DNA of 61,199 nucleotides from an uncultured virus (IMG/VR IMGVR_UViG_3300038365_000169) (lineage: Duplodnaviria > Heunggongvirae > Uroviricota > Caudoviricetes), in the IMG/VR virus record IMGVR_UViG_3300038365_000169. One strand, given 5' to 3'. The first letter of the stretch is position 1. Each line of letters opens with the position of its first letter. This document shows positions 24,741 to 55,786 of the stretch, piece by piece. Position numbers and translations under genes: made by a program. Below the pieces are notes generated by a model, which was not told the DNA's origin, did not search any database, and saw nothing but the letters and a program-made list of their open reading frames with translations.

Positions 24741-25139
24741 GTGATGAAGCGCGAGTTTATAGGAACTGTTGCAGACGTTCAAGTTGATGACGAGGTGATG
24801 GGAAGGGACGGCAAATGGCACAAAATCACGGACCTTCTGCCACCATTCATGCCCAAGCTAATGTACAGCGTTCATCTTGAGAACGGATATGTGGAGTGCA
24901 CTGGGGACCATCAATGGAACGTATTTTTAGCCGGAAACAGCCTTGGAAATTTTGACACATCCAACATGCTGGTACTCTTTGAGAGCTTCGAAAAGGGAGA
25001 TTTATGCGTTGGAGTGGCTGACGGACCCGCCCTACTAGGGGTGGAAAGAATTGAGCCCAAGATGAGCTGCTGTCTTGTGGTGGACTCTGAGGACCATCAA
25101 TTCGAGATATTAACACACCAGGGAGGTGATGGCAAATGA
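24741..25139 (+). CDS. Free-standing intein/Hint middle fragment (blocks B and F, class-3 type)
   Basis: TVADVQVDDEVMGRDG, block B CTGDHQW, block F CCLVVDSEDHQF; no block A start, no HN-[CST]; own AGGAGG RBS. Confidence 0.8.
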   Translation: MMKREFIGTVADVQVDDEVMGRDGKWHKITDLLPPFMPKLMYSVHLENGYVECTGDHQWNVFLAGNSLGNFDTSNMLVLFESFEKGDLCVGVADGPALLGVERIEPKMSCCLVVDSEDHQFEILTHQGGDGK

Positions 25140-25387
25140 CGCTCATGGCGGCAACAGCCTGCATTGCATTTATGTTGCCAATGATGGCATATGGGGAGAG
25201 CTTTAGCTTTGCTGTGAATGAGGTGATGTGGGACTTTCCGGAGGGGCCGGCAAAAAGGGCCACCATAATTGCAGCTCAATGTATATTTATGGCAATCATC
25301 TGCATCATCTCAATCTTGACCGTTTGGCCCATGCATTACATCATGTCGTCAAGGCCAACCATAGCTTGGAATGGGTGGTGGTTGTAA
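25136..25387 (+). CDS. Small membrane protein between the intein fragments
   Basis: Hydrophobic; overlaps both neighbours; GGAGG RBS. Confidence 0.55.
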   Translation: MTLMAATACIAFMLPMMAYGESFSFAVNEVMWDFPEGPAKRATIIAAQCIFMAIICIISILTVWPMHYIMSSRPTIAWNGWWL

Positions 25388-25907
25388 AATGACTAGCATG
25401 AATGGAATTCAGGTTCTTAGCATCCTTAGTGAGGGTGATCTTTTGGTCATTAATGCAGAAGGGGAAAAGGTTATATGGTCTCCAGAATATGCTGAAATGA
25501 TGATGTCTGGGGATTTACAATCAGTTTTTACACACAATTGTGGACAACGTTTGGTCTGCGGCAGATTAGGCAGTGTTGCCAGCCGTATGGCTCTTGACGA
25601 CAACCAAGCCACCACCATTGACGGAACCCGAAAGGGTGCTGGGATAGTAAAGAGCCAAGGAGAGGTTACCCACATACAGTACTATTTTGCCACACAAAAA
25701 TGGATAGAGGACTGGTTTGTGGAACGCGGGTTAACCAAGCAGGGCTACCCACCAGACATGGAGAGCAATCCGGACTTTGACCCAGCAAAGATAGACTTTG
25801 GTGAGGATGAGGACATCAAAATATCCAGAAAGAAGACAGACATAGATTTTCACAAGATACACCGTGAGGTGGATCATACACAGGACCAAAGGTTCGAGGA
25901 ACTTTAG
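25371..25907 (+). CDS. Intein C-terminal piece (VFTHN/C) fused to C-terminal subdomain of an FtsK/TcpA-like ATPase
   Basis: THN then Cys+1 (25539-25541); CGQRLVCGRL...SRMALD...KGAGIV...IQYYF aligns with NNIQMSCLLGDF...SSLLFE...KGRGFL...FQAYW of 28979..29869. Confidence 0.75.
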   Translation: MGGGCKMTSMNGIQVLSILSEGDLLVINAEGEKVIWSPEYAEMMMSGDLQSVFTHNCGQRLVCGRLGSVASRMALDDNQATTIDGTRKGAGIVKSQGEVTHIQYYFATQKWIEDWFVERGLTKQGYPPDMESNPDFDPAKIDFGEDEDIKISRKKTDIDFHKIHREVDHTQDQRFEEL

Positions 25908-25930
25908 GCATAAATTCCATTAAAAGTAGA

Positions 25931-25955
25931 TTAGGCTCCCTAAAGGGGAGCCTAA
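25931..25955. terminator. Bidirectional intrinsic terminator between convergent genes
   Basis: ttaggctccc-taaag-gggagcctaa hairpin with AT-rich flanks. Confidence 0.75.
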
Positions 25956-25985
25956 ATTTATTTATTAGCTTCATTATTCAACAAT

Positions 25986-26423
25986 CTATACCTCAGTTTT
26001 GACAAGCATGGAGCAGTTATTGAATAAAAATGCAAATGTTCCGTTTAAATCTACGATCATCTCAATTTCGCCCGCATGAACAACCATGCCAACCTGGTCA
26101 AGATATTCTTCGTCAACTTCACCCTTCCATAGCTCCACTGGAACCACACCAAGTGTGCCTGATTCAACCTCATAGCTCTTGCCGTTGGAGTCCAGAAAAA
26201 TCCCGTCTCCCTCCACCGTGGACTTCATGGCAAAAAGAAATCCGCTGTCAGGATCCTTCCATTCTCCATCCTTGTAGCCGTATAGATCGCCCCAAACCCC
26301 ATCATATACCCGTGGGTCTAAGGCGAAATATACGTCACCCACAAAAATTTTGCCGATGGCGGACGAAACCTTGAATTTTACTTTTTCGGTGTTAAGCATC
26401 ATTATCACCTCCAATATGCACAT
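25986..26423 (-). CDS. Hypothetical phage-like protein
   Basis: ORF; FVGDVYF...GDG.F...SGTLGVVP. Confidence 0.6.
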   Translation of the reverse strand: MCILEVIMMLNTEKVKFKVSSAIGKIFVGDVYFALDPRVYDGVWGDLYGYKDGEWKDPDSGFLFAMKSTVEGDGIFLDSNGKSYEVESGTLGVVPVELWKGEVDEEYLDQVGMVVHAGEIEMIVDLNGTFAFLFNNCSMLVKTEV

Positions 26424-26447
26424 GCTGATGTCGTACGCATCGACGCT

Positions 26448-26594
26448 TTAGCTGACCTCCTTGGCCTCCTCAAGATGAGTCTGCTCCAGATCCTCAGCAA
26501 CCATGTATGCGTCCTCCTCATTGGGATACCAGTCAACAACCTCTCTGTTGTCACGAAGAACCACAAACCCAGAAACTACAGAATAGTTGATCAT
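26448..26594 (-). CDS. Small acidic protein (48 aa), not in ORF track
   Basis: GGAGG RBS + ATG; MINYSVVSGFVVLRDNREVVDWYPNEEDAYMVAEDLEQTHLEEAKEVS. Confidence 0.55.
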   Translation of the reverse strand: MINYSVVSGFVVLRDNREVVDWYPNEEDAYMVAEDLEQTHLEEAKEVS

Positions 26595-26737
26595 GTTAAG
26601 CTACCTCCACTAAAATTGGCATTATTTCTCCCTATTATTAAACAAGAAATATTGCAAAGGAATTAGCTTAACTCCGACTTATAAAGCTTATGAGCAAAAT
26701 AGTAAAAAATATTAATCTAGAAATATAATGCTATAAA

Positions 26738-26920: not shown

Positions 26921-26923
26921 ACC

Positions 26924-27793: not shown

Positions 27794-28966
27794 CTACTGC
27801 AGGAGGGCCCAGTCTGGAATGTCCACTATTTTGCCCTCCTGTACAGCCTCGTATATCTTGCCCATGGTGAGTAGCATGGGTTGGCCGTTTATCTCGCACT
27901 GCATGATCTCGTCAAATTGAAAGCTTTGGTCCCCAATTTTGAACCACTCTACGTCCTTCTCTAGGTCATAAATGTCCTGCACGTCAGCTTGCTCCATAAA
28001 CTTGAACCTGTCCATCATTATGGACTGTGCCTGCCCAAGAAGCTCCTCAACGTCAGTCACGGTAAGTGCGACCTTATGCACCCCCTTAACCCTCTCCAGT
28101 CCGCCAAACTCCACCCGCTTTACGTCGCATAGAAGCCCCTGTATTCTGTCCGCAAACCTGGATATATGGCCTATGATGCCGTTTTCAACCACAGATTTGC
28201 CTGATCCTGTGCCGCCAGCCACTATCAGATGGGTGCTAACCAGTGTGTTGACCATCTCCTTGCGCTCCGTTTGGTTGTTTATCTTCCACCCTATGGGGCT
28301 AACAGTCTTTCTTTCGTTGTTAACTGCCTCCCCTAGAGGTATGATGTTCCATGATGTGTCGCTGCTTTTGTCAATGGAGCATCTTTTTGGTATGGCCTGC
28401 TTCTTGGCTATGTTGATGCTGACCGTGTAGCTGTCTATATCTATGTTGTCCAAATAGTAGGTGAAATGCTCACTTTTGTCCGAGATTTCCCTTACAAAGT
28501 CCATCACGTCATTTCTGCTCAAGCTCACGTCATAGTGTATGAACAGGTACTTACCCTTAAAGAAAATGTAGCTACATGACAACCTCTTCTTTGCCAGATC
28601 TCTAACCCACCTATCGAACATGGGAGGCTTCAACCCAACAATGTACACCAGCATCAGCAACGGACCAGTGGTCCAGCATGCCGTTCTGCAGATTCCAGAG
28701 AACGGGTTCAACATGCCCTTTATGGTTTCAAACAAGGGTATAACGCTGGTGCGGGAGAGCAACCTATAGGAGCCAGATGACATGAAGAGCAAGAACAGGC
28801 TGCCGAAAAACAGAATGGAAAGCGCAATGGCCAACCACTTCCAGATTGGGCTATTGGGAATCACTCTGACTTTTTGTTCCCCTATAACTATCTTCTTCCC
28901 CTCACGTTCACGCTTTGCCTCATCCGTTTGAGCTTTGCTTTGCTTGCCAAATAGTTCGTTTGCCAT
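27794..28966 (-). CDS. FtsK/TcpA-like ATPase, N-terminal half (TM + Walker A)
   Basis: 2 TM segments; HLIVAGGTGSGKS; CDVKRVEF; ends before Walker B. Confidence 0.8.
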   Translation of the reverse strand: MANELFGKQSKAQTDEAKREREGKKIVIGEQKVRVIPNSPIWKWLAIALSILFFGSLFLLFMSSGSYRLLSRTSVIPLFETIKGMLNPFSGICRTACWTTGPLLMLVYIVGLKPPMFDRWVRDLAKKRLSCSYIFFKGKYLFIHYDVSLSRNDVMDFVREISDKSEHFTYYLDNIDIDSYTVSINIAKKQAIPKRCSIDKSSDTSWNIIPLGEAVNNERKTVSPIGWKINNQTERKEMVNTLVSTHLIVAGGTGSGKSVVENGIIGHISRFADRIQGLLCDVKRVEFGGLERVKGVHKVALTVTDVEELLGQAQSIMMDRFKFMEQADVQDIYDLEKDVEWFKIGDQSFQFDEIMQCEINGQPMLLTMGKIYEAVQEGKIVDIPDWALLQ

Positions 28967-28978
28967 CTATATCACCCC

Positions 28979-29869
28979 TTATTCCACAATGTCATACCCT
29001 TCGTCCATCGAAGGTTGCTGATCCACAGGTATCTTCACATCCATATTTTTCTTGTTGAGCTTTAATTTGGTGACGGCAACCGGCTGCTCGTCCTGAACTT
29101 GACCGGACATCTTGATGTTAATTTTGCCCAACCTGACCTCAGGTACCCTTTCAACATTCTGCTCGACAAATGGTGCTAGGGTTTCCTCAACCTCTAGCTC
29201 CAAACCTCTTGCCTTTCTGGCCCTGTTCATGGCGGCTATTAGCTCGGCTCTTTCGTCAAGTGGCTCCTGAGGGAGCAGATGCTTGACCGCAGGTTTTTCC
29301 TCCAGTTGATACCCCTGCTCTAACTCTGCATGTTTGACCACCTGCTCCACCTGATGTTGCTTGAAATGCTCTACCTTGTCCTGTCGCTTTTGTTTGACCC
29401 TTTTGGCCTTTTTGCTGTTTGAACTGCTGTTTATTTTAACCTCGGTCTGGCCGCGTTCAAGAAAGTCCTTCTTTCTCTCCGTCCAGTATGCTTGAAACTC
29501 ATGTATGTCCTTGCCGCTCTTTAGAAAACCGCGCCCCTTTATCTCAGGCTTGGACAGACTGGACATGTCCTTCTCAAATAATAAGGAGCTTGCGCCAGCG
29601 TCAAAATCTCCCAAAAGACAGCTCATCTGTATGTTGTTCTTCAGGTCAGCATTTATGACGTTGGATGAGGGTCTTTGCGTTGCTAAGCATAAGGATACAC
29701 CTGCCGCTCGACCAAGCCTTGCTATGCTGCCAAGGGAGCTCTGTATGGAGTTAACAAGCTTGAAGTTTGAATCATTCATTACCTCTGAAAGTTCGTCCAC
29801 CAGCACAACAACCGCCTTGGGCCTGTAGGCTGCCACATGCTTGCTGATGCTGTCCTTGGATATTCGCAC
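28979..29869 (-). CDS. FtsK/TcpA-like ATPase, C-terminal half (Walker B onward)
   Basis: VVVLVDEL, IARLGRAAGVSLCLATQRP, KGRG; disordered tail. Confidence 0.82.
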   Translation of the reverse strand: MRISKDSISKHVAAYRPKAVVVLVDELSEVMNDSNFKLVNSIQSSLGSIARLGRAAGVSLCLATQRPSSNVINADLKNNIQMSCLLGDFDAGASSLLFEKDMSSLSKPEIKGRGFLKSGKDIHEFQAYWTERKKDFLERGQTEVKINSSSNSKKAKRVKQKRQDKVEHFKQHQVEQVVKHAELEQGYQLEEKPAVKHLLPQEPLDERAELIAAMNRARKARGLELEVEETLAPFVEQNVERVPEVRLGKINIKMSGQVQDEQPVAVTKLKLNKKNMDVKIPVDQQPSMDEGYDIVE

Positions 29870-29878
29870 GCCCTCACC

Positions 29879-30097
29879 TCACTTTACCCATAGTTCGTTA
29901 ATTTGGTTGTTATTGTTCGTTATATAGTCCGTTATCTCCCTTACCTGATCCTTTATGGCGTCCATCAATGGGCTGCTAGCTATGGCAAATATGGTTACGG
30001 CAAAAATGACCAAAATAATGAGAAATTCGAATGCTATTGCACCCTCATGCTGTTCGTTTAACTTGCCCTTAATCTTGGCTAAATCTAAGGGTTTCAT
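29879..30097 (-). CDS. Flp/type IVb pilin-like protein
   Basis: HEG/AIAFEFLIILVIFAV prepilin motif (Glu+5). Confidence 0.65.
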   Translation of the reverse strand: MKPLDLAKIKGKLNEQHEGAIAFEFLIILVIFAVTIFAIASSPLMDAIKDQVREITDYITNNNNQINELWVK

Positions 30098-30109
30098 GGA
30101 TTTGCCCTC

Positions 30110-31612
30110 CTATACCTCACCCTCAGACCTTTGCTCCAAGATGCTGAGCAGGCCGAAAAGTGAGTCCTTGGTCGGCAGTATCGCAACCGTCTCCCTATGG
30201 CGGGGTAACCGGGTGTTAACCTCCAAGTTGGCGTCAATGGAGCGGTCCACTACAGGAATGATGGATTCGCTGTTGAAGCCATAGAAGGAGCATGCGTCCC
30301 CGTCATGGTCAGCATTGTATGCCTTGCAGTAAAGTGGATGGATCTCAGCAGAAGCTCCCTTGCTGACCCTAGGTATGAAGCTTTGAAATGAGCTTTGGTG
30401 CAACGATGGCTGCCTGTTCATGGCAACCCTAAGATGGCCAATTCTGCGCTCTAAATCCTTTCTGGCTGGCTCGGTTACTTGATTTTGAGGTACCCTGAAC
30501 TGCTCCATCCATTGGTCTATCTGCTCCATGCTTCTTCCCTCCGCGGAAAGCTGCTTTAATATGGTGGGTCGGTATATGTCAACCGCCATGGATGGTGGAA
30601 TGGCAACCTCTCCAAACTTTAGGTCCGCGTTAGGTGTGATGACAGCTCGTCCGCTGTAGGGGATGCTGGACCCGGACAGTACAGCCCTAAATACGCCGCC
30701 CTTACCGGCAAATTCGTCCGCTAATGACATGTTTCTGTATCCGTTGCTGAACCTGGCATAGTTGTCGCCAAGCTTGGCGTTGTTTAAAAGTGCGTCATAT
30801 GCTAGCTGCTGTCGGTCTGGATTGGCATGCTGCCTGAGCATATACTTATAGCCAACGGTGATGTCACTGGAGACCACATCCTCACGTTCGCCAATAGGGC
30901 TGCCATCCCCAGCAGAGCTGTCAACCTCCGTGTGGTCAGAAATGCCCATTCTCATGTAGTATGGAAGAACATATACATGCTTGGTTGCCTCAAAGTTGAA
31001 CTTTTCATGCGCAAACCTGTTCATGGCAACCACACCAGTTTCAACCTTTACTGACTCCTCCCAGCCCTCTGGATAGCCGTCACGTTCGTATTCCTCTATC
31101 TTTTCCTTGCTGAAAGCTCTGCCAACCTTGAATCGATTTAAGTTGCTCTCCGTTACTAAAAATACGTCCCCATGAAGCATGCCGTTTATGGTCTTGTATG
31201 GCATGCCGGATAGCTGGCTGAAGTAGTTTTTGTCCATGTCATTCCACAAAGGTTCCTCCAGCTCCATGTATCCGCCATCCATATTTTGGTCCAGCTGCAT
31301 GCGGTTTTCAATCTTAACAAGATCCTTGAGCTCCTCGTCACTCATCCTGTATGGTTTGCTCTCTATGGTGGTTCCCTCATAGGGTATGAATCCGTCAACA
31401 TCAACCGCATCATCACCAGGTAGGTTGCTGGATAACCTCTCCTGCAGAAGCTCAACCCTGCTCACAAACTCCTGAGGCGTTTCCCCCTCATATTGGTGCT
31501 CAATATGATTGCAACGACCCTTACCGCGAAGTTCGGGTGGGCAAGTGCAATAGGTCATATTGCCGTTTACATTTAGGGCTAGAACCTTTGTTACCCTTGT
31601 GGCTGCGCCCAT
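30110..31612 (-). CDS. RNA polymerase beta-prime (RpoC)-like catalytic fragment with N-terminal GKGRCxH module
   Basis: GKGGVFR..LSG....YSGRAVI, NRQPSLH, IHPLYCKAYNADHDGD (30296-30316); ends about 60 aa after the motif. Confidence 0.88.
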   Translation of the reverse strand: MGAATRVTKVLALNVNGNMTYCTCPPELRGKGRCNHIEHQYEGETPQEFVSRVELLQERLSSNLPGDDAVDVDGFIPYEGTTIESKPYRMSDEELKDLVKIENRMQLDQNMDGGYMELEEPLWNDMDKNYFSQLSGMPYKTINGMLHGDVFLVTESNLNRFKVGRAFSKEKIEEYERDGYPEGWEESVKVETGVVAMNRFAHEKFNFEATKHVYVLPYYMRMGISDHTEVDSSAGDGSPIGEREDVVSSDITVGYKYMLRQHANPDRQQLAYDALLNNAKLGDNYARFSNGYRNMSLADEFAGKGGVFRAVLSGSSIPYSGRAVITPNADLKFGEVAIPPSMAVDIYRPTILKQLSAEGRSMEQIDQWMEQFRVPQNQVTEPARKDLERRIGHLRVAMNRQPSLHQSSFQSFIPRVSKGASAEIHPLYCKAYNADHDGDACSFYGFNSESIIPVVDRSIDANLEVNTRLPRHRETVAILPTKDSLFGLLSILEQRSEGEV

Positions 31613-31695: not shown

Positions 31696-34032
31696 TTATT
31701 TGACGATTTCGAATAAATCGTCATCATTTGCGACAGGTTTGGAGTATACTGAGTTAAGGGTGGTGGTGTCACCAACTATCATTATGCCCTTGTCATCATC
31801 CACTCGACCCTCATCCTTGACCAACGGTAGGTCCGGTTCAAGCTCTAAAATTTCCTCCATTGAAAGTATGGCGTCAGGACCGGCATAGTTGGGTGCGAAG
31901 AAGTCTGGAACCTCCGGAAGAACCGCTGTGCCAATCTTCTCCTTCTCGATGAGGTCACCATGTAGGCCCTGCAGCTGCATCTCGCTGTGCAAGAAACGTG
32001 CAGAGTCATTTAATCTGATCTCTTTGCCGCCTATTTTGACCATTTCTCCCTCTACCCTTGATACCTCACGACGTACGCCAGCTAACCCGTAGTCAGCCTT
32101 TACCCCCTTTGCCATGTATTCAGGAAGCATGTCGTCATACCTTTCAAACGATAGGTTCTTTAGTTGGTTCTGTTTCAATACCTTGCCCTTTTTGACCATC
32201 TTTAGCATTTTCTTGCCAAGGCCAGCTTGGTCCAAAACATCCATTGAATCCGCCCATAAAAGCTTCCAAAGGTCCTTTTTGCCGTAGTTTACCAAAAGTG
32301 ATAATGTGTAGTCAGAATGGTCAGGCACCTGGGTGCCGCTGCTGTCACACATGGCAATCTGGCTGACGTCTGCAGGCACGGGGCCAACTGCAACCCTAAA
32401 GTCTATGTTATCACGCAGTGAGAGGGGAAATGTCTTGCCGCTTACCTTTAAGCTGGAGAACACCACATGCACGTTAACAGACTTGCCATACTTGGTGATG
32501 GTCTCCATGGCAATTTTGATTTCATTGACCATTACGCCCTTGCTTACGCTGCCTCCAACTATGCCCTGCATTTCGTCATCATCAACAGCTGCTTTTTCGT
32601 CCGTTTCAATTAGCTTTTCGTAGTCCGTTACAACAAAAACAACGGGAGGCAGGCTCATCTCCCCGCCTAACTGTATTACATTCTGGGTGGCAATCTCCCA
32701 GTGGTTGGGTATGCGAAAACGCTTGTCACCCTCAAGTACGACCTCCATGCCGGGTTGGATGTCCTGTGCAACTATGTCCTTTTCGTCGCCAGCAATTCTG
32801 ACGTGAACACGTTCATTTGCGCCCAGTATGTGGTTGTTTAATGCCACCCGTGTGCCAAGGTTTATTACACCGGACAGCGGCAGGGACTGTATGTTTAGCT
32901 TCTTTAATGCATTATACCTTTGGGTCATCATGTATAGCAAACGCTTTACAACCTCATATGATTCTGAGACATTCCTTGCAATGTACTTTATCTGTGGTGC
33001 AGATTCCAATGCGTCAAACTGTGGGTTCTGATTCTGGTTGTCAATATATACTTCCACCCCGCCCTTCATGACCATGTGCCCAATGATGGACTTGAGTATG
33101 CTGTTCCTCTGGTCTTCATTCTGACCGACCACCATGGCCATTGATGCGGACTTGTTGGCCCTGATAAATTCATTTGACTGAAGTTCCTTTGTGCGGAGCA
33201 GGTCTGAAAATGTCATGTCATGACTTGGCTTGAGGTACTTGGGGTCCTTGACAGCTTTTTTGTTCCTTTTGAGTGCAAGGTCAAACGTTTGCTCCTCAAA
33301 TTGGGGCGTCTCATGCAGCTTAAGAACGTACATGCTGTTGGTCTTTGATGCCAAAGTTACGTCGCTTATAACACCAAGAGGTACCACATACCATGGAAGG
33401 AAATTAGAGATGCCAAGCAGTGACTTCCACTCCACATGCTCGTCAAAATGTAAGCATGCAGTTAAGGTATACCATTTGCCGTCCCTCATGCCGTCCCATA
33501 GATACTCAGGAAATGCATTCTCTAAAGATTCAATTAGGACCTCATATTGCTGCCTGTTGGCAGTGGCAGACATGCGAAATCGAAAAACATGCATTAGAAC
33601 AGGCACGATCTTTCCTGACTTTCTTAGCGGTGATAAGCTGTGCACCACCGGTCGTCTTTCCTTTTTGTCAGGAGAAACCTCATTGTTGCCAGAACCGTTG
33701 AATACCTCACGAAATGCAACCATTTCGTCTGGAATGTTCATAAGGGTTACTCCAGCTTCATATATGATCCCCTTTACCTTGGATATATGCCCCCTTTGGT
33801 ATACTAGATAGCTGACAGCCATAAACATCCAGTTCAGAGCATGAACCATCAGAAGTACATAAAGATGCACGGGAATGAATAGGGTTGCCACCGCTAGGGC
33901 AACCGTTACACCAAAGAAAATCCAATGCATTCTTACGTTTCGCTTGACATAGAGCTTGTTCTCTAGCATGAAGCGATATATTACGGCGACCATCAGCGTG
34001 GCCACAACCAGGGCAATGTTTATAGCGTTCAT
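31696..34032 (-). CDS. FtsK/TcpA-like membrane protein with degenerate ATPase motifs
   Basis: 3 TM segments; Walker A position reads GQNEDQRNS; VVFVVTDYE; KYGKSVNVHVV; LRDNIDFRVAVG. Confidence 0.65.
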   Translation of the reverse strand: MNAINIALVVATLMVAVIYRFMLENKLYVKRNVRMHWIFFGVTVALAVATLFIPVHLYVLLMVHALNWMFMAVSYLVYQRGHISKVKGIIYEAGVTLMNIPDEMVAFREVFNGSGNNEVSPDKKERRPVVHSLSPLRKSGKIVPVLMHVFRFRMSATANRQQYEVLIESLENAFPEYLWDGMRDGKWYTLTACLHFDEHVEWKSLLGISNFLPWYVVPLGVISDVTLASKTNSMYVLKLHETPQFEEQTFDLALKRNKKAVKDPKYLKPSHDMTFSDLLRTKELQSNEFIRANKSASMAMVVGQNEDQRNSILKSIIGHMVMKGGVEVYIDNQNQNPQFDALESAPQIKYIARNVSESYEVVKRLLYMMTQRYNALKKLNIQSLPLSGVINLGTRVALNNHILGANERVHVRIAGDEKDIVAQDIQPGMEVVLEGDKRFRIPNHWEIATQNVIQLGGEMSLPPVVFVVTDYEKLIETDEKAAVDDDEMQGIVGGSVSKGVMVNEIKIAMETITKYGKSVNVHVVFSSLKVSGKTFPLSLRDNIDFRVAVGPVPADVSQIAMCDSSGTQVPDHSDYTLSLLVNYGKKDLWKLLWADSMDVLDQAGLGKKMLKMVKKGKVLKQNQLKNLSFERYDDMLPEYMAKGVKADYGLAGVRREVSRVEGEMVKIGGKEIRLNDSARFLHSEMQLQGLHGDLIEKEKIGTAVLPEVPDFFAPNYAGPDAILSMEEILELEPDLPLVKDEGRVDDDKGIMIVGDTTTLNSVYSKPVANDDDLFEIVK

Positions 34033-34092: not shown

Positions 34093-37000
34093 CTATAGGT
34101 CCTCAGAGTCCTGGTCGAGAAGGCCAACTGCAGCTTCTGCACCGTTACGCTTTCTTTGCTCAGAGATTTTGCCGTCAACCTCCAGTGATATGCCCTCCCT
34201 TTTGCCTGATGCATCTTCAACCTTTGACTGCCTCTCGGCAACCATCCGCTCCTGAGCTGGCTCAAGATTCCTCTTGTCCTCCATTTCGAACTCTGCAGAT
34301 GTTTTGACATCGTCATCTTTCTTTTTGCCAAATACGCCCTTTTTCTTGCCCTGATCCTTTTGTTGAACTTTCTTCTTGGCAACAGGTTGCTCCTGCAAGA
34401 AACGCTCTTGAACCTGAGCCCTTTCGCCATTTTGATGGATTTCCTCTGTTTGGCTGCCAGGAACCCTTTGGTCCTGTACGGGTTTCTTGCCCTCTGATTT
34501 TTCCTGCTGCATCTTTATGTTCTGAGAGCTTGATCCGCCAAGTTTTACCTTCTTGACCTGACCCTGCTTGTTCCTCTGTTCCACTACATTTTCCCCCACC
34601 TGAACCTTTTCAACTGTTAAGCCGGAGCTTTGCTGCTCCAGAACCTCTTGATGGAGTTTGGCAGTATGTTGCTTGCTCTGCCCCTCGACCTTTTGGTCCA
34701 AATGAACGACATGTGACTGACCCTCTGGAACTGACATCGGTGTCTCCGTTCCGTCAGAAACTATCTCAAAGTCGTCCTCTTCGTGCTTTTCCCCCATGGA
34801 CTCATTGTCAGGTTTCTGAATCTCATCAAGGTCCCTATCCCTCATGCTTAAGCTAACAGTTGCTGCGCCGTCTAAACTTTCCTCAGACTCGTCTGGTTGG
34901 GCTCTCTCTTTGCCCTTCGGTTCCGCTCCAGCCCCTAGCTCTGAGCCCTCATTGTCCACCAATGGTTCCTCTGGTATCACACCGTGTGCATTGCCTGAAG
35001 TGACTGGCTTCTGCTCGCCATCATTTTCCTCGTTGTCTGGCCCAACCTCTTCGTCACTTTCGCCGTTGGCGTCCCTACGTCCTGTTTCCTCCACAGGTAT
35101 CTCGGTTCCGTCCACAAAGTCCTCATTGTCCACCACCGGTTCGTCAGCTCCATTGTCCTGCTGGTTGCCGGATGGATTCGTTCCGCTGTTGCCGTTTCCT
35201 GCACCTGTTGCACCGCCATTTCCGCTGTTGCCTGGAGCACCAGAGCCAGCCCCAGAACGGGTGCCTGGAGTTTGTCCGGTGGAGGGTTTGTTTCTAAGAC
35301 GTCTGAATGCACTCCCCAGTCCGAATGTTCCCCTGCCGCCACGAGAGCCATAACGACCGCGTCGTGCAAATGCACGGTTTACAAAGCCTAGCTCCCTGCC
35401 GCCAACAGTTCTGGAGATGTACATGTTGATCTCCTGAATGATGATTGGTCCAAACTTGGCCATAACCACCGAAAGAACCATGCCCACCAACATGCCGCCT
35501 ATGCCCTGAGCGGAAAGTAAAACTACAACCACTATTAAAACGTTAAATAGAGCTGATCCGATTAAAAAGCGGAAAAATGCCAATAGATAGGTCCACACCA
35601 TCCTTCTGGCAATGTCCCTTGTGCCCCGAAATAGAAGCATGGCTGGCATGACGACCATTGCAAATGAGCCTATAATTATGATGGTCTGTCCAAGCATGCA
35701 GAATATGGATATCTGAAATAACCCGAAGGCTAGCAGAAGATTCTGTAAAAACGACATAAATACGTTTGCGCATGCGGTGCCATAGCTGGGATTTACAAGG
35801 CTGTACATGATCTTGTCCACCTTGCCTACCAGCTGTGCGTCACCGGAGTTTTGCTCCTTTAGGTTGGATAGAAAGTCCACCACATATAAAATTCTGTCAT
35901 TTGAGTCCAAATTTACCACCGTCTGTCCGGAGCTGGTGAAGGCCAAGCCAGAGCTTACTGTGTCATTTATGTACACTGATGAGTTTGCTGCCCACCAGTA
36001 GTACCCAAGGTTATTTATGCTGTTTTGGCCGTTTGTGTCGGTTTGCACCCTCATGGAGTTTATGTTGCCGTTTGGAAATGTTACCTCCAGTGCCCTTTCG
36101 GCTTGTTCAACGGTGCAAAGTGAGCCCGCATTGCCATCCGGTCCGACAATGTAAAGGTCATTTATTGGCATGCCAAACTGGGCCTCAATGATGGAGTCAA
36201 TATACACCTTTCCGACCAAGCCCTTCTGTGTGGCCGCTGTGTCCGTTCCCAGCGATGCGTCCGTTTGGTAGTCATATACTGCACCGGCATCACCCATGGA
36301 CATTACCGCTAAATCGTTAGATAGTGCGGAAATGAAGTCTATTCCAACATTGCTGACCTTTGCAGGGTTGCTGGGTGTGAAAAACATTCCGGTGATCAAT
36401 AATGCCACCAAAAATATGGAAAACTCCTGAGCAACCACCTTTAGGGTCGTGTCTCCCTTGATCACCTTGAATGCTAGGCCCACAAATGATACCAAAAACA
36501 TGAAAAGAGCGAAAACTAAAAATGGGGATAGGGTGCCGGTTGCAAGGTCAATTAAAAATATGGATGATAGAATTTTGGCTAGCTCCCCTGAGCCTTGGTC
36601 GAACACGCTTAGTATGGCGGATAGGTCTATGCTCTTGATGGTGACGGATATGTCCACCAATAGCTTGGATATCCAATGTAATGCGTTGATTATGCCCAAG
36701 GCTAAGCCGCCGAAGAATTCCCCCACACTGTCCGTTGGTTGGGTCATGGCCCATAGATGTGGGTCAGTGCTGCTGTCGTCTATCTTGTCAGCACCCCATT
36801 GGCCGTTTAAACCGGAGCTGAATGGTCTTTCCCGTCCGTTTATCTCCTCACCGTTGTAGTACCTGTATGGAAACTGGTCGCGCAGGTAGTATGGAATCTC
36901 CCCCTTGTAGGAGACTAACTTGCGGCTGCCGCCGTAAAGTGAGTCAAAACCAATGGCTGTTATGTTTTCGGCGTTAAATGGGTACTTGGAAAGGTTGGGA

Positions 37001-37212
37001 GAGTAGGTCCCCTTGCCCTCTATGACGGTCTTTCTTGCCGTTAAGAAGGGTTCAATAAATCCGTCGGTAGCTGCGTAAACAACAGGAGCTATCGTGAAGA
37101 TTGTCGCAATGATCATAATGGTTGAAATCAACCTAGAGACCCTACTTTTACAACCTTTAGTTAAGAGGGTAGAGGAGGGCTTTATGCCTTTAGTTTTGAA
37201 TTTTTCCGACAT
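34093..37212 (-). CDS. VirB6/TcpH-like polytopic transfer protein with long acidic low-complexity tail
   Basis: Signal peptide, multiple TMs, Gly-rich then E/D/Q-rich C-terminus. Confidence 0.6.
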   Translation of the reverse strand: MSEKFKTKGIKPSSTLLTKGCKSRVSRLISTIMIIATIFTIAPVVYAATDGFIEPFLTARKTVIEGKGTYSPNLSKYPFNAENITAIGFDSLYGGSRKLVSYKGEIPYYLRDQFPYRYYNGEEINGRERPFSSGLNGQWGADKIDDSSTDPHLWAMTQPTDSVGEFFGGLALGIINALHWISKLLVDISVTIKSIDLSAILSVFDQGSGELAKILSSIFLIDLATGTLSPFLVFALFMFLVSFVGLAFKVIKGDTTLKVVAQEFSIFLVALLITGMFFTPSNPAKVSNVGIDFISALSNDLAVMSMGDAGAVYDYQTDASLGTDTAATQKGLVGKVYIDSIIEAQFGMPINDLYIVGPDGNAGSLCTVEQAERALEVTFPNGNINSMRVQTDTNGQNSINNLGYYWWAANSSVYINDTVSSGLAFTSSGQTVVNLDSNDRILYVVDFLSNLKEQNSGDAQLVGKVDKIMYSLVNPSYGTACANVFMSFLQNLLLAFGLFQISIFCMLGQTIIIIGSFAMVVMPAMLLFRGTRDIARRMVWTYLLAFFRFLIGSALFNVLIVVVVLLSAQGIGGMLVGMVLSVVMAKFGPIIIQEINMYISRTVGGRELGFVNRAFARRGRYGSRGGRGTFGLGSAFRRLRNKPSTGQTPGTRSGAGSGAPGNSGNGGATGAGNGNSGTNPSGNQQDNGADEPVVDNEDFVDGTEIPVEETGRRDANGESDEEVGPDNEENDGEQKPVTSGNAHGVIPEEPLVDNEGSELGAGAEPKGKERAQPDESEESLDGAATVSLSMRDRDLDEIQKPDNESMGEKHEEDDFEIVSDGTETPMSVPEGQSHVVHLDQKVEGQSKQHTAKLHQEVLEQQSSGLTVEKVQVGENVVEQRNKQGQVKKVKLGGSSSQNIKMQQEKSEGKKPVQDQRVPGSQTEEIHQNGERAQVQERFLQEQPVAKKKVQQKDQGKKKGVFGKKKDDDVKTSAEFEMEDKRNLEPAQERMVAERQSKVEDASGKREGISLEVDGKISEQRKRNGAEAAVGLLDQDSEDL

Positions 37213-49034: not shown

Positions 49035-50138
49035 CTATTCGGGGTCCCAGTCCTTTAAAACTTTCGCTTTCAAAAGGGGCTCCCTGCCGAAAAGCTCATT
49101 TATGACCACAGGTATGTTCTCACCTGCGGCAATCTGGTGGTTCAAATGCATCTTTAGTTCGTCCGTAAACACCATATACTGTGTGTTTAACCTGAAACCT
49201 GTGTCCGAAGGTATTAGCCTTTGGCATAGTATTAGGCTTAGGTTGGCAATTACGTCATGCATTATGCCCTCATTTTGCCCCACCAGCATGTTGTACATGC
49301 GGGATATGGTGTCGCCGCAGTCAGACGCATGAAAGCTGGATATGACGCCATGGCCCGTTCGTGATGCTTCCACCAATGTTTCCACCGTTTCTCGGTCACG
49401 TGTTTCACCCACATTTACAAAGTTTGGATGCTCACGCAGGCTCTGCTTGACGCCATCAGCAAAGTTCTTAAAGTCCACCCTCAGCTCCTTTTGAAGAATG
49501 TTTACATTTTCGGATGAGGGAAATACGTATTCAACTGGGTCCTCCAGTGATATGATCGTTGTGTTGTTCATCACCCCGCCAGGTAGGGAGAAATCCCTCA
49601 TGCATGCTGCAAGGGTGGTGGTCTTGCCGGAGCCCGTTACGCCCACAAATAGTGTGATGCCCTGACGCTTCGCAATTACCTGCTTCAGTATCCTCTCAAT
49701 GTCAGAAGGAAAGTTTATCTTGCTGAATGATGGAAGCTCCTTGGTGATCATTCTGAATGTTGCGATGTTTTTGCCCATTGAGAAGCCCACTGAAACTCGA
49801 TAGCGTAGCTCGTTTACCGTCGATAGCCCCTCTGCATCCACACCTGGTTCTGAGATCACATATGAAAGGTCCAGCATCTTTTTGCGCACATAGGCAGCGT
49901 TATTCTCGGAGGTGATGGCCTCCTTGGCCCATGCGTTCCATATCTTGGCGGTCACAGGATGGGTTGGAACGGTGTAAAGAAGGCCCCATCTGGTGATGTA
50001 TGGCTCCTGTCCAACCTTTATGTATAGGTCTGAGCATTCGTTTTCGGTGCAAAACCGCAGCAGCATGTCAATGTCTGGCATTTTGTTTTGGAACTGCTCT
50101 AGATTTAATGAGCTGGTTCTGACTATTTTGAGCGCCAC
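49035..50138 (-). CDS. PilT/VirB11-family secretion ATPase
   Basis: CSDLYI, GVTGSGKTTT, EDPVEY, LREHPN...GETRD, TGHGVISSFHA. Confidence 0.9.
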   Translation of the reverse strand: MALKIVRTSSLNLEQFQNKMPDIDMLLRFCTENECSDLYIKVGQEPYITRWGLLYTVPTHPVTAKIWNAWAKEAITSENNAAYVRKKMLDLSYVISEPGVDAEGLSTVNELRYRVSVGFSMGKNIATFRMITKELPSFSKINFPSDIERILKQVIAKRQGITLFVGVTGSGKTTTLAACMRDFSLPGGVMNNTTIISLEDPVEYVFPSSENVNILQKELRVDFKNFADGVKQSLREHPNFVNVGETRDRETVETLVEASRTGHGVISSFHASDCGDTISRMYNMLVGQNEGIMHDVIANLSLILCQRLIPSDTGFRLNTQYMVFTDELKMHLNHQIAAGENIPVVINELFGREPLLKAKVLKDWDPE

Positions 50139-53178: not shown

Positions 53179-53199
53179 AACCCTCTCACCTCCCTTCCA

Positions 53200-53844
53200 T
53201 CATTGCCATTTCATGCCAAGCAGCTCCTTGCTGGTTTTGCCGCTGGTGTCCATGTCTGGTAGTATCTCAAGCTCGCCGACAGAGGTGAATCGGAATTTCC
53301 CCGCACATACCTTTTTGTTAAGCATGGTGCTTTGCTTGCTTCCCCTGGCCCTTTCTATGGTTAGAAGCCATTTGTCGCGTTGGTCCAATGGTGTGCCGGA
53401 CCTCTGGAAAAGGGCCTCCAGGTCCTCAACCTCCTGAACCTCCTCCAACTCGTCCCGCTGGGGTAATGGCTGCTGCCTTTGAATTTGCCCCTCTTGTTCA
53501 ACTGAGGAAACTAATTGTGATTTTTCAACGTTTTCCTGATTTTTCTTTCTGCCAAGATTTAACCTTAAGGATTTGCCCACATGCTGCTCGGGTTGGCCCT
53601 GCAGCTCAACATGTTTTTGGGGTAATGGCTGCTGCTTTGGTTGCTCGGGTTCAACACCCTTTACCACAACCCGCTCCACAGTGCGCCTTAGGCCCATCTC
53701 CTTGGCGCGGAGCTCGTCCTCTGTGAGTGTCTGTTCATTTTCCTGGTTGAGAACCCTTTGCTCTACCATCTGCTGGTTCACTTGCTTCTTTATTTTGCCG
53801 TCATCAGAAAAGCTTTCTAAAAACTCTCCAAGCTTGGAACCCAT
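53200..53844 (-). CDS. Hypothetical Q/E-rich protein
   Basis: 214-aa ORF with RBS; QQPLPQ twice. Confidence 0.6.
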   Translation of the reverse strand: MGSKLGEFLESFSDDGKIKKQVNQQMVEQRVLNQENEQTLTEDELRAKEMGLRRTVERVVVKGVEPEQPKQQPLPQKHVELQGQPEQHVGKSLRLNLGRKKNQENVEKSQLVSSVEQEGQIQRQQPLPQRDELEEVQEVEDLEALFQRSGTPLDQRDKWLLTIERARGSKQSTMLNKKVCAGKFRFTSVGELEILPDMDTSGKTSKELLGMKWQ

Positions 53845-53856
53845 AGCTTCACCTCC

Positions 53857-54750
53857 CTACTTGATAAATATGAACCACACTAAAAATAGGTTTACACCCG
53901 TTAGTATGAAGTTAAGAATAATGTTCACCGTGCCGCCCGTCGTGATGGCAAATTTGCCGCCAAATAGGTACGGTTTCCACCACATTCTGAAACCGATGCC
54001 CCTTCTGGTTTTTACCGGCGTGGGTATGGGAAAGAACAACGGTGCACTACCCTTGGTAAGCAAGTCACCAATGATATGAAACAGGTAACCCAACGATATG
54101 GCCGTACCAATCAACTTAAGCTGAGACAAGGGCATTCTCCACATGCTCCATATGGACAGCACCAGGAAGAGCCAGCAGAAGATCTGAGTGGACCTTTGTC
54201 TTCTCAAGAGACTCAACACCTTGTAGAAGAACATGGAAGCACCCAGGTAAACACTTATGGCACCCAAGAAGATCATGGTATAAACGGATGCCGGCACAGA
54301 GGTCCAACCCATGGATGCCGGCGATGCATTTGATGACGGATATGCGAACCAATTAAAGGCAAATATCACAACAGCAACAAATGGTGCATGAAAGAACATG
54401 CGGTGCTGGCTGGGCGGTTTCTCGTCATGCTTGGTGTGCATGATGTTCCAAATTACCCCTGATATAACCACGGCTACAATCGAAAGGCCCTGGCCAAGAA
54501 ATCCGAGCTGGTACACCGCCGTGGAGCCTCCCTCCTGCAACGGGGAGGAGTCCAGATCCGGCAGCAATGACGCTCCCCCTATGACCAAAAAGACCATAAA
54601 GGCAAAGATCCAGCTCTGCATGATGGCGCTAACGTAGCTCTGAGCCATGGCGATTGGGGTCAACCAGATGAGGAAGAACAGCATCAATGCGATCAGCCAG
54701 TGGGTAAAACCGCTAAATCCCGCATGTTCCGACATAAGCAACCTACGCAT
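53857..54750 (-). CDS. Membrane-bound metal-dependent hydrolase (YdjM family)
   Basis: GFTH, GASLLPDLD, HRMFFH, GYLFHIIGDLLT..G.PLFFP. Confidence 0.8.
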   Translation of the reverse strand: MRRLLMSEHAGFSGFTHWLIALMLFFLIWLTPIAMAQSYVSAIMQSWIFAFMVFLVIGGASLLPDLDSSPLQEGGSTAVYQLGFLGQGLSIVAVVISGVIWNIMHTKHDEKPPSQHRMFFHAPFVAVVIFAFNWFAYPSSNASPASMGWTSVPASVYTMIFLGAISVYLGASMFFYKVLSLLRRQRSTQIFCWLFLVLSIWSMWRMPLSQLKLIGTAISLGYLFHIIGDLLTKGSAPLFFPIPTPVKTRRGIGFRMWWKPYLFGGKFAITTGGTVNIILNFILTGVNLFLVWFIFIK

Positions 54751-54790
54751 TTGCGTTCACCTCCTTAACATTAAATGGGTTTTAGTCAAA

Positions 54791-55786
54791 TTACTGTAGC
54801 ATTGACTCCAGCTCCTTGACCGTTACAATTTTGACCTCGCCGTCGGGTGTTTTGACCTCCAGCTGGTCGGTGTCCTTCATCCTGTGGTTGAATATCATGA
54901 CCTCATCCGTTGGGCACTGTGGTCTGAAGTCCTTTATGTCGTTTAGGCCCAGCTTGGCCATTTCCCTGTTTCGTGCGTACATGCACTCCCTCATGACCCT
55001 TAGTATCTCGGCGCACTCACGAACGTTGTTCGCCACCGCCACAACATTTTTCTTGCCCTTGTATGACTCAAACTCTGTAACCTTTAGGTCCACCAAAGCT
55101 ACAGCGATCTCCTCGCCGTGGGTCAAGCAGTGCAGTATGATGTTTCTCAGTGTGACTGAGTTATGATGCATTAGGTCGCATGTTTCAAACCTATGATCGT
55201 TTGTTTCCACGCAGAAAACCCTCCTGTCACCCAGGCATTTGCCGGATAAAACGGCATGCCCGTTGCACAGAAGCTCCTCACCCATATGGGCTAGATCGAC
55301 CACCAAACGCACGGGGAGCCAGAATTCAACCTCTGATACCTTTGAGGGGTCTGACTCCACCGCGACATCACGTATCTCCATGGGTGCTAGACGCTTCATG
55401 CCCTCGAGTGCTACTGCACCCTCAACCTTAACTAGACCGATTTGGCCAAAAAGAGCGTTTAACTCGCCATGCGTCATGGTGCCCTTAAGAACCTCGTCTA
55501 AATTGCTGTAGTATGCATGCCTGTCCATAAGAGTGGGGATCTCATACCCGGTGAAGTTGTCTCGAACCCATTGCTTGCCGGCTAAGGTCATCTTGGATAT
55601 GTCAATCAGAAGCAGGTGGTCCTCCGATAGAACGCAGGATTTTTTGCCGTACTCGGTGATAAAGCCGGACCTCTTGCGGTACTTGATTTCGTAGCAGACA
55701 GCCGTGTATTCCACATGTCGACGCACAACAGTGGACCCGTTGGAAAATTTGTCCCCCACCTCCACCTCTGACCATTTCTTTAGCAA
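54791..55786 (-). CDS. Large C-type split-intein fragment (55160..55786) fused to the post-Walker-A segment of an FtsK/TcpA-like ATPase
   Basis: Starts KKWSEVEVGD (no block A start); block B LSEDHLL; block F/G VFCVETNDHRFETCDLMHHN, then S+1 VTLRNII...VDLKVTEF...RECMYARN. Confidence 0.85.
   Translation of the reverse strand: MLKKWSEVEVGDKFSNGSTVVRRHVEYTAVCYEIKYRKRSGFITEYGKKSCVLSEDHLLLIDISKMTLAGKQWVRDNFTGYEIPTLMDRHAYYSNLDEVLKGTMTHGELNALFGQIGLVKVEGAVALEGMKRLAPMEIRDVAVESDPSKVSEVEFWLPVRLVVDLAHMGEELLCNGHAVLSGKCLGDRRVFCVETNDHRFETCDLMHHNSVTLRNIILHCLTHGEEIAVALVDLKVTEFESYKGKKNVVAVANNVRECAEILRVMRECMYARNREMAKLGLNDIKDFRPQCPTDEVMIFNHRMKDTDQLEVKTPDGEVKIVTVKELESMLQ

What the first reader, a model, noticed from the sequence alone, without database searches (positions are those of the whole stretch)
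24741..55786. Coupling-protein-like ATPase encoded 'in pieces' across more than 30 kb and both strands
Seen: 54791..55786 (post-Walker A segment) and 25371..25907 (C-terminal subdomain) are non-overlapping, colinear parts of one FtsK fold, about 29 kb apart and on opposite strands. Each begins with an intein C-junction. Inference: one ATPase assembled from at least four extein pieces (two not in the window), two different split inteins and one non-covalent split. This could act as a post-translational AND-gate on DNA transfer. It is the best candidate for an undescribed system here.
Basis: inference. Interest (0 to 1): 0.88.

Follow-up and report, generated by a model that had tools for sequence, protein, structure and literature searches.

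The report
ATPase gene fractured by split inteins
One DNA-pumping ATPase of a very large mobile element is encoded as scattered gene pieces that carry protein-splicing signals, and one of the two splicing elements itself seems to be divided among three separate genes, which has so far been reported only for engineered versions.

Summary
54791-55786(-) encodes a 209-aa intein C-part ending HHN|S, then the post-Walker-A segment of an FtsK-like ATPase. 25389-25907(+) encodes a short leader ending FTHN|C, then the C-terminal subdomain.

Both map without overlap onto one contiguous 746-aa homologue (P0148). In four complete 250-394 kb relatives, all four extein pieces exist as single copies.

- ORF 24741-25139 is a free-standing intein core. 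It has the class-3 signature (block-B Trp, block-F Cys) and a confident Hint-fold model. Relatives fuse it to the C-terminal piece, or carry it in cis. The second intein is therefore split into three genes: about 12 aa on the absent Walker-B piece, the free core, and the block-G strand on the last piece.
- The first intein cuts the P-loop between Lys and Ser.
- The window holds two more FtsK-like paralogues, one of them complete.

The two missing pieces are not in the window, and the rest of this replicon could not be read. Splicing, assembly and any gating role are inferred, not shown. I found no report of a natural three-piece intein in the library searched.

The parts
55160..55786 (-). Intein 1, long C-part (residues 1-209 of the 331-aa ORF). 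It is a Hint core lacking only the first strand, with block B S54..H57, block F Cys192 and a terminal H208-N209.
   Evidence: Invariant residues in 26 aligned homologues. 69 of 70 homologues keep the junction. In the AF2 model this part has pLDDT 85-97, and the best PDB matches are inteins (6riy_B E 6e-4). In G001-G004 the same region is a separate ORF.
54791..55159 (-). Extein piece B2 (Ser210 to Gln331, plus the TAA stop). It is the post-Walker-A segment of the FtsK-like ATPase and starts with the P-loop Ser. It ends at a break with no intein marks.
   Evidence: Pfam PF01580 profile 53-147, 29.5 bits. It maps to P0148 residues 256-359 at 37.5% identity, E 6e-21. Cys290 in its tail is not conserved.
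24741..25139 (+). H1: the free-standing core of intein 2 (132 aa). It holds blocks B and F and lacks both the first strand and block G. It has its own AAGGAGGTGA Shine-Dalgarno sequence.
   Evidence: D17, H57, W59 and C111 are invariant in 27 sequences. AF2 pLDDT is 93.1. The Foldseek top matches are class 3 DnaB inteins, TM 0.67-0.72. Homologues are fused to the B4 extein or sit in cis in P0148. It is a single-copy stand-alone ORF in 4 of 4 complete relatives.
25136..25387 (+). orf83: a small ORF with two hydrophobic segments between H1 and B4. Its start overlaps the H1 stop (ATGA). Its role is unknown.
   Evidence: Sequence and GGGAGGTGA Shine-Dalgarno sequence. Only a weak sub-threshold Pfam hit.
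25389..25538 (+). B4 leader plus the intein 2 C-piece. About 38 aa are not Hint-like but are conserved in close relatives. The block G strand SVFTHN follows.
   Evidence: T54, N56 and C57 are invariant in 24 sequences, and 36 of 36 homologues keep the junction. Relatives carry only 6-15 aa before the junction.
25539..25907 (+). Extein piece B4 (Cys57 to the end, plus the stop): the C-terminal subdomain of the ATPase.
   Evidence: It maps to P0148 residues 605-746 at 38% identity, E 2e-25. It is paralogous to paralogue A's C-half. It is single copy in 4 of 4 complete relatives.
25931..25955 (.). Bidirectional terminator-like hairpin that closes the H1-orf83-B4 unit.
   Evidence: 11-pair stem followed by a T run on both strands.
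27794..29869 (-). Paralogue A, shown for comparison: a complete FtsK-like ATPase in two adjacent ORFs with no intein. The C-half (28979-29869) lies upstream of the N-half (27794-28966). It is broken at the same point as B2/B3.
   Evidence: PF01580 profile 27-135 and 165-220. Translations. The paralogue A clade has 97/97 support.
31696..34032 (-). Paralogue C, shown for comparison: a contiguous 778-aa membrane protein with a degenerate FtsK-like domain.
   Evidence: Weak tblastn hits to A and B2. Translation. blastp to P0145 gives E 2e-5.

Best explanation
The window holds three of at least five genes that together make one membrane-anchored FtsK/TcpA-like ATPase ('paralogue B') of a very large mobile element.

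Proposed assembly:
1. An N-terminal piece, not in the window, ends in the P-loop ...GxxGxGK plus a 9-15-aa intein N-tag. It pairs with the 209-aa intein C-part of ORF 54791-55786. Trans-splicing joins Lys to Ser210 and completes Walker A.
2. A Walker-B piece, also not in the window, ends in ...NN plus a tag of about 12 aa that begins with Pro. This tag, the free-standing core H1 (24741-25139) and the block-G strand ...FTHN on ORF 25389-25907 fold into one class-3 intein.
3. The block-F cysteine of H1 takes over the N-extein as a thioester and passes it to Cys57. Asn56 then cyclises and the two exteins are joined.
4. The two spliced halves associate without a covalent bond, as the two ORFs of paralogue A must do.

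Shown here: homology, colinear tiling, conservation of all catalytic residues, the Hint fold, and the existence of every piece in complete relatives.

Inferred: that splicing and assembly occur, and that the product moves DNA.
For: Tiling:
- P0148 (746 aa) is contiguous. PF01580 profile 15-220 matches in one stretch, Walker A is intact, and intein 2 sits in cis at residues 480-624.
- Window B2, H1 and B4 map to P0148 residues 256-359, 496-617 and 605-746.
- Intermediate grades of fragmentation exist: P0145, P0153, P0137 and P0132.

Complete relatives G001-G004:
- B1, the intein 1 core, B2, B3, H1 and B4 are each single copy in 4 of 4.
- In G001 they lie colinear within 18 kb.

Catalytic residues:
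- B2: H57, C192, H208, N209 and S210 are invariant in 26 of 26.
- H1: H57, W59 and C111 are invariant in 27 of 27.
- B4: T54, N56 and C57 are invariant in 24 of 24.
- B3: P121 is invariant in 16 of 16, and 46 of 120 listed B3 proteins end in NNP[LI][SA]x..T.

Class 3 signature:
- The W/C/T positions are as defined in PMC7891396 (sections read).
- Pro1 is the first residue of the prototype class 3 intein in PMC2807308 (passages).

Fold:
- H1 model has pLDDT 93.1, and its best PDB matches are class 3 DnaB inteins.

Gene signals in the window:
- Strong Shine-Dalgarno sites, coupled starts and a terminator.
- The same arrangement occurs in a contig of another run, with 7 substitutions, 5 of them synonymous, and no indels.

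Co-occurrence:
- B2 and B4 homologues share identical longest-contig lengths in 6 pairs.
Against: - The N-terminal and Walker-B pieces were not found in the window, and the rest of this replicon cannot be read. For this element they are assumed from relatives that are only 33-48% identical.
- No experiment, RNA or peptide shows splicing.
- Intein 1 lacks the Trp and Thr of the class-3 triplet.
- The window's B4 has a 38-aa leader of unknown role, and orf83 lies between H1 and B4. A decayed fused gene is therefore conceivable.
- A complete paralogue A in the window could make B dispensable.
- Relatives carry small stop-bearing insertions inside B2 and B4 that I cannot explain.
Confidence: 0.7

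Rival explanations
1. The pieces are decaying relics of a gene wrecked by intein and endonuclease invasion. Paralogue A does the work, and paralogue B is non-functional in this element.
For: - A complete paralogue A is present.
- The H1/B4 locus is an inverted island with reversed GC skew, next to an HNH/GmrSD_C endonuclease gene.
- orf83 and a non-Hint leader interrupt what is a single ORF in 14 of 36 B4 homologues.
- The partner pieces are unseen.
Against: - Every piece keeps an open frame, a strong ribosome-binding site and all catalytic residues across homologues down to about 31% identity.
- The same fragmentation is kept, with single copies, in 4 of 4 complete relatives.
- The leader type is conserved in 7 relatives.
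- 5 of 7 substitutions between samples are synonymous.
Confidence: 0.12
2. The intein fragments serve only as non-covalent docking modules. The ATPase works as a multi-chain complex without peptide ligation.
For: - The B2/B3 break, and the paralogue A break, already require non-covalent assembly.
- No evidence of ligation exists.
Against: Residues needed only for chemistry are invariant: block-F Cys, block-B His, terminal Asn and the +1 Cys or Ser. An unspliced P-loop would carry a 200-aa insert between Lys and Ser.
Confidence: 0.1
3. The pieces are joined at the RNA level by group I or II introns or trans-splicing. In particular, H1 and B4 would be fused by removal of the 25140-25388 region.
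For: Gene fragmentation by small group I introns is reported as common in huge phages (PMC12880540, passages read). H1 and B4 are in the same reading frame.
Against: - No Rfam family reaches threshold anywhere in the window, and no intron family appears even at E up to 10 in 24500-26100.
- orf83 and B4 have their own coupled starts.
- B2 lies on the opposite strand 29 kb away.
- The breaks coincide with protein-level intein junctions.
- In relatives, H1 and B4 are 3 to 43 kb apart.
Confidence: 0.04
4. B2 and B4 belong to two different ATPases and only look complementary.
For: Three FtsK-like paralogues coexist in the window.
Against: - Both match the single contiguous protein P0148 far better than the paralogue A pieces do.
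- Paralogues A and C have their own C-terminal parts.
- Tree.
- The pieces co-occur on the same contigs.
Confidence: 0.04

Closest known systems
Class 3 inteins (prototype: mycobacteriophage Bethlehem DnaB intein; solved examples: Mycobacterium DnaB inteins 6bs8 and 6rix)
   Same: Intein 2 has Pro at position 1 (in relatives and in cis form), Trp at block B:12, Cys at block F:4, Thr-His-Asn at the end, and a Hint fold whose best structural matches are these inteins.
   Different: - Those inteins are single-chain. Here the core is its own gene.
[quoted passage not shown]
- Intein 1 has only the block-F Cys of the triplet.
AceL NrdHF, the first reported naturally split class 3 intein (PMC7891396)
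   Same: A class 3 chemistry split across genes, in a phage-like metagenomic contig with a fractured-gene layout.
   Different: AceL NrdHF has two pieces (98 + 48 aa), split at the canonical endonuclease site. Here there are three pieces, split after the first strand and before the last strand.
Engineered three-piece split inteins (Sun, Yang and Liu 2004, seen only as a citation; Weis et al. bioRxiv 2023, abstract read)
   Same: A short N-tag, a free middle piece and a short C-tag that reassemble.
   Different: Those are artificial. The 2023 abstract states that natural inteins were known only as one or two genes. They also derive from class 1 inteins, whose nucleophile sits on the N-tag rather than on the free core.
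'Fractured genes' (Dassa et al. 2009, PMC2677866; abstract read)
   Same: A conserved enzyme gene is broken by a split intein in phage-like DNA. In relative G001, endonuclease-like ORFs and a TnpB gene lie between the pieces.
   Different: - Fractured genes have two adjacent halves with one endonuclease gene between them.
- Here there are 4 extein pieces plus 1-2 free intein cores.
- The pieces are scattered over tens of kb and, in the window, lie on both strands.
- FtsK is not mentioned anywhere in that paper's text.
FtsK/SpoIIIE-family translocases, including conjugative coupling proteins and T7SS EssC/YukB
   Same: PF01580 domain. For the contiguous homologue, the nearest solved relatives are FtsK (E 1.6e-9), YukB (1.6e-5) and a 'DNA translocase coupling protein' 6o1w (1.4e-4). 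The neighbours include TcpC-like, AAA_10 and T2SSE/Flp genes.
   Different: No gamma domain was seen. The protein is encoded in pieces. Its role is untested. Identifying 6o1w as pCW3 TcpA is from recall only.

Membership tests
Intein (Hint domain) | Hint fold | tested here: met
   H1 model has pLDDT 93.1, and 11 PDB matches at E <= 1e-3 are all inteins. For the B2 N-part, the best matches are inteins, with TM 0.51-0.57 on the target.
Intein (Hint domain) | C-terminal Asn followed by Cys, Ser or Thr at +1 | tested here: met
   B2: N209 and S210 are invariant, and 69 of 70 homologues keep the junction. B4: N56 and C57 are invariant, and 36 of 36 keep it.
Intein (Hint domain) | Block B His (TxxH) | tested here: met
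   H57 is invariant in both the B2 and the H1 alignments.
Intein (Hint domain) | Actual excision and ligation | not testable with these tools
   No RNA holder was listed and no proteomics is available.
Class 3 intein | No nucleophile at intein position 1 | tested here: inconclusive
   Met in relatives: Pro in 16 of 16 aligned B3 tails and in the cis form of P0148, and Ala in the B1 tails. The window's own N-pieces are not available.
Class 3 intein | Cys at block F position 4 | tested here: met
   C111 of H1 in 27 of 27, and C192 of B2 in 26 of 26. The position was assigned by alignment to the class 1 block F pattern, which I recalled.
Class 3 intein | Trp at block B:12 and Thr at block G:5 | tested here: met
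   Intein 2: W59 is invariant and T54 is invariant. Intein 1 does NOT meet this: it has Leu and His at those places.
Naturally split intein (two-piece) | Intein encoded on exactly two genes, each fused to an extein | tested here: not met
   Intein 2: H1 is a stand-alone ORF with a stop upstream, its own Shine-Dalgarno sequence and no extein. Intein 1 in the window fits a two-piece atypical split, with a short N-tag elsewhere.
FtsK/SpoIIIE family | PF01580 domain above the curated cut-off | tested here: met
   B2 scores 29.5 bits against a cut-off of 24. The contiguous homologue P0148 scores 65.3 bits.
FtsK/SpoIIIE family | Intact Walker A and Walker B in one polypeptide | tested here: not met
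   The window pieces hold neither motif. Walker A is cut between Lys and Ser, and Walker B lies on an absent piece.
Conjugative coupling protein (TcpA-like) | Required for DNA transfer and docks to a relaxosome or T4SS | not testable with these tools
   Context only: TcpC-like at 30.3 bits, AAA_10 at 108.8 bits, and TcpE below its cut-off.
Fractured gene (Dassa 2009) | Free-standing endonuclease gene between the two halves | tested here: not met
   In the window, only orf83 lies between H1 and B4, and B2 is 29 kb away. In G001, endonuclease-like ORFs were not recognised by Pfam, while TnpB was.

The most novel reading that the evidence does not exclude
H1 is the first natural example of a free-standing, trans-acting intein core. 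It would be a three-gene class-3 intein in which the catalytic cysteine sits on a protein fused to neither extein. The N-extein would then be carried transiently as a thioester on a separate 15-kDa protein and handed to the C-extein. That is, in effect, a dedicated protein ligase that recognises a 12-aa tag and a 6-12-aa tag, and it might turn over or be used as a checkpoint for assembling the ATPase.
Probability: 0.5. Interest if true: 0.9.

Novelty: new variant of a known kind. Interest (0 to 1): 0.8.

Why it matters
- Split inteins are core tools of protein engineering. Very short tags at both junctions and a separate catalytic core have so far been reported only as engineered variants. A natural, evolutionarily tuned version with class-3 chemistry would be a new tool.
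- It would also test how far a Hint domain can be divided.
- It shows an extreme of gene fracturing: one ATPase from up to six genes scattered over tens of kb. Gene callers and domain scans miss this, because Pfam saw no intein in any of these pieces above threshold.
- It raises the question of whether such fracturing is only tolerated damage from selfish elements, or is used to time assembly of a DNA-translocating machine.

Tried and rejected
Dead ends in data access:
- No whole genome is held for the window.
- No near-identical DNA for window 24000-48000, and no protein match for B2, in the plasmid or phage collections.
- The GTDB genome scan gave one 3.2-kb MAG contig only. The JGI metagenome scan gave 11 mostly short loci, none close to the window's lineage (GC 26-31% in the five loci examined).

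Readings I dropped:
- Cys290 in the B2 tail as the Cys1 of another split intein: rejected, because it is not conserved.
- 'THQ' at the end of H1 as a degenerate C-junction: rejected, because relatives end right after block F.
- TAG recoding to extend ORFs in relatives: the piece ends are followed by further stops, so the readings hold either way.

Tests with no usable answer:
- Complex prediction on the G002 trio (B3 tail, H1, B4 head) scored 0.26 against a mark of 0.32, so it gave no verdict.
- No RNA holder was listed among the sequencing runs.
- Rfam found no intron or any other family.
- Phage hallmark searches in G001-G004 found nothing: Terminase_6N, Phage_capsid and Gp23 (the Gp23 control rang nowhere). 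Whether these elements are phages or giant plasmids is open.
- Pfam did not recognise the endonuclease-like ORFs of G001 and G002.


Full report
**What is in the window**

ORF 54791-55786 on the minus strand is 331 aa. It starts at a TTG seven bases after GGAGGTGA, with a stop codon just upstream in frame.
- Residues 1-209 look like a Hint domain that lacks only its first strand. They end in HHN, followed by Ser210.
- Residues 210-300 match Pfam FtsK_SpoIIIE profile positions 53-147 (29.5 bits, cut-off 24).

A small operon on the plus strand sits in a stretch otherwise coded on the minus strand, with reversed GC skew. It holds three tightly coupled ORFs, closed by a bidirectional terminator-like hairpin at 25931-25955:
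- H1, 24741-25139, 132 aa, with Shine-Dalgarno sequence AAGGAGGTGA.
- orf83, 25136-25387, whose start overlaps the H1 stop.
- B4, with its best start at ATG 25389, one base after the orf83 stop.

B4 reads ...SVFTHN|CGQRLVCGRLGS..., followed by a segment paralogous to the C-terminal part of another FtsK-like protein in the window.

**The window holds three FtsK-like paralogues, not one**
- Paralogue A is complete and has no intein. It lies in two adjacent ORFs. 27794-28966 carries the membrane N-domain, Walker A (GGTGSGKS) and a tail. 28979-29869 carries Walker B, the QRP motif and the C-terminal subdomain. The C-half is encoded upstream of the N-half.
- Paralogue C (31696-34032, 778 aa) is contiguous, with degenerate motifs.
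- Paralogue B is the finding.

B2 aligns to paralogue A's N-half residues 258-335 at 31% identity, starting exactly at the P-loop Ser. B4 aligns to paralogue A's C-half residues 71-142. Intein 1 therefore cuts the P-loop between Lys and Ser.

**The pieces are conserved genes**

B2:
- It has 70 homologues, and 65 of 70 cover at least 94% of it, at identities down to 31%.
- In 26 aligned sequences H57, C192, T195, H208, N209 and S210 are invariant.
- 69 of 70 keep the xN|S junction, and the intein part is 165-326 aa long.
- Cys290 in the tail is not conserved. The tail is extein, not another intein N-part, and the ORF ends at a break with no intein marks.

B4:
- It has 36 homologues, and 36 of 36 keep T[HRQ]N|C.
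- The part before the junction is 135-165 aa in 14 of them, which is an H1-like core fused in front.
- It is 47-90 aa in 17 and 12-31 aa in 5.
- The window's 38-aa non-Hint leader recurs in P0074-P0078, P0080 and P0081.

**H1 is the core of intein 2**

A search of 1.84 billion representatives with H1 gave 69 hits. By a rough HMM-based sorting of the 65 that gave a domain row:
- 26 are stand-alone ORFs that start at the H1 start and end within 45 aa after block F.
- About 15 continue into ...THN|C plus the B4 extein.
- 7 carry an N-extein in front.
- The rest sit inside larger proteins.

In 27 aligned sequences D17, H57, W59 and C111 are invariant.

PMC7891396 (introduction and two results sections read) defines the class 3 signature as Trp at N3:12, Cys at C2:4 and Thr at C1:5, with Asn at C1:7. 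H1 has ...GDHQW... and ...CCLVVDSEDHQF..., and B4 has T-H-N.

PMC2807308 (passages read) shows that the prototype class 3 intein begins with Pro1.

The AlphaFold model of H1 is confident (pLDDT 93.1, pTM 0.83). Its best PDB matches are class 3 DnaB inteins (6rix, 6bs8; TM 0.67-0.72). The B2 model is confident in the intein part, and its best matches are inteins too.

**Complete relatives hold all the pieces**

An IMG/VR scan gave four records of 250-394 kb. Three have direct terminal repeats, and all are estimated complete by CheckV. They share the window's AAA_10 ATPase at 44-45% identity.

In 4 of 4 I found single copies of each of the following:
- B1: 421-440 aa, a membrane N-domain.
  - A cis intein beginning PLGL[ND]T sits inside the P-loop.
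  - TGGGK follows it, then a tail AIYI[ED]Q....
- A free-standing core of intein 1: 197-211 aa. In G002-G004 it ends right after block F...CFCISTDTGRYET.
- B2 with only 11-33 aa before HN|S.
- B3: about 130 aa with Walker B. In G001-G003 it ends in ...NN-PLS[IL]DTLVE... In G004 it ends in ...PG-CDLLSIEKIDLMIV.
- H1: a 116-127-aa stand-alone ORF.
- B4 with 6-8 aa before the junction, for example MVFTHN|C.

In G001 all of these lie colinear within 18 kb, with a TnpB gene and endonuclease-like ORFs between them. In G002-G004 they are spread over 30 to 140 kb. Both inteins are thus three-piece in these genomes.

In the window, intein 1 is two-piece, because its core is fused to B2. The G001 core ORF matches B2 residues 1-172 at E 1.5e-9. 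Intein 2 is three-piece.

The B3 family has 212 members. Of the 120 listed, 46 end in the Pro-led tag. Others end in Cys-led short tags at two other sites.

**One protein**

P0148 (746 aa) is a contiguous form:
- N-domain and an intact P-loop (GATGGGKS).
- No break between the B2 and B3 parts.
- Walker B.
- ...RSN | PLALDTLV...HQW...CVCITT...IYTHN | CGFR...

Window B2, H1 and B4 map to P0148 residues 256-359, 496-617 and 605-746. The paralogue A pieces match more weakly.

P0145 and P0153 join B2 and B3. P0137 and P0132 join B3, the N-tag and the core.

A tree of the post-Walker-A segment puts window B2 with the B sequences, including these contiguous forms. The paralogue A clade lies apart, with 97/97 support. 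Support for the B side is modest, at 57/93.

B2 and B4 homologues share identical longest-contig lengths in six pairs.

**What is not shown**
- tblastn with four B1 and four B3 proteins finds neither piece in the window. B3 hits only paralogue A's C-half at 31-35% identity.
- No genome is held.
- Splicing itself is untested.
- No RNA holder was listed.
- The complex prediction gave no verdict.
- Rfam finds no intron.
- The same H1-orf83-B4 arrangement stands in a contig of another run, with 7 substitutions (5 synonymous) and no indels.
- Whether these elements are phages or giant plasmids is open. IMG/VR calls the relatives viral. Three hallmark Pfam searches found nothing. The window carries TcpC-like, AAA_10, Flp and T2SSE genes.

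**Literature**

Six full-text searches found three-piece inteins only as engineered constructs.
- The 2023 preprint abstract says natural inteins are known as one or two genes.
- PMC7891396 reports one split class 3 intein among 1701.
- PMC12880540 reports frequent gene fragmentation by introns and putative inteins in huge gut phages. It does not mention FtsK (passages read).

The library lacks most subscription journals, so absence from print is not proven.

Noticed in passing
window 27794-29869 (-): Paralogue A is encoded as two adjacent ORFs with the C-terminal half upstream of the N-terminal half. A relative (L005, G002) is contiguous across that point, and its gene begins with its own intein C-junction ...TIFHN|SGKSV, three residues away from the B-type site.
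   Followed up: partly
L017, L014, L026, L027, L048 (relatives): Tiny in-frame insertions of 6-21 nt that hold stop codons sit inside the B2 and B4 genes. Examples are ...CAARI[TAG]IVAGR... and ...FHCI[TAG]A[TAG]CLK[TAA]IEH... TAG recoding alone does not explain them.
   Followed up: partly
L034-L037 (B1 of G001-G004): A cis intein (Pro1, block-F Cys) sits five residues before the split-intein site in the same P-loop. The G003 and G004 copies end in Gln instead of Asn.
   Followed up: partly
window 25136-25387 (+) and 25389-25502 (+): orf83 is a small ORF with two hydrophobic segments, translationally coupled between H1 and B4. B4 also has a 38-aa leader that is conserved in close relatives but is not Hint-like.
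   Followed up: partly
window 31696-34032 (-): A third, contiguous FtsK-like membrane protein (778 aa) with degenerate Walker motifs, next to a 1039-aa multi-pass membrane protein (34093-37212).
   Followed up: partly
window 30110-31612 (-): A stand-alone 500-aa ORF carries only RNA polymerase Rpb1 domain 2 (beta-prime fragment). This suggests the element's RNA polymerase is also encoded in pieces.
   Followed up: no
window 56521-56742 (-), about 29870-30100 (-), 49035-50138 (-): Two Flp/Fap-pilin-like small ORFs and a T2SSE (TadA/CpaF-like) ATPase, together with TcpC-like, TcpE-like (weak) and AAA_10 genes. This is a Tad-like plus Gram-positive-type T4SS-like gene set on the element.
   Followed up: no
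G001:47571-49664 (relative): The AAA_10 ATPase homologue of G001 lies in a 732-aa open frame. That frame also matches H1 and the B1 cis intein weakly, so it probably carries an intein of the same kind.
   Followed up: no
window 23581-24303 (-): A GmrSD_C/HNH-type endonuclease gene lies directly beside the inverted H1-orf83-B4 island.
   Followed up: no
B3 family (P0176-P0295): B3 genes end in short intein N-tags at three different insertion sites: after TQR, after LPG and after QNN. The first two tags are led by Cys. This suggests repeated, independent invasions, all split after the first strand.
   Followed up: partly
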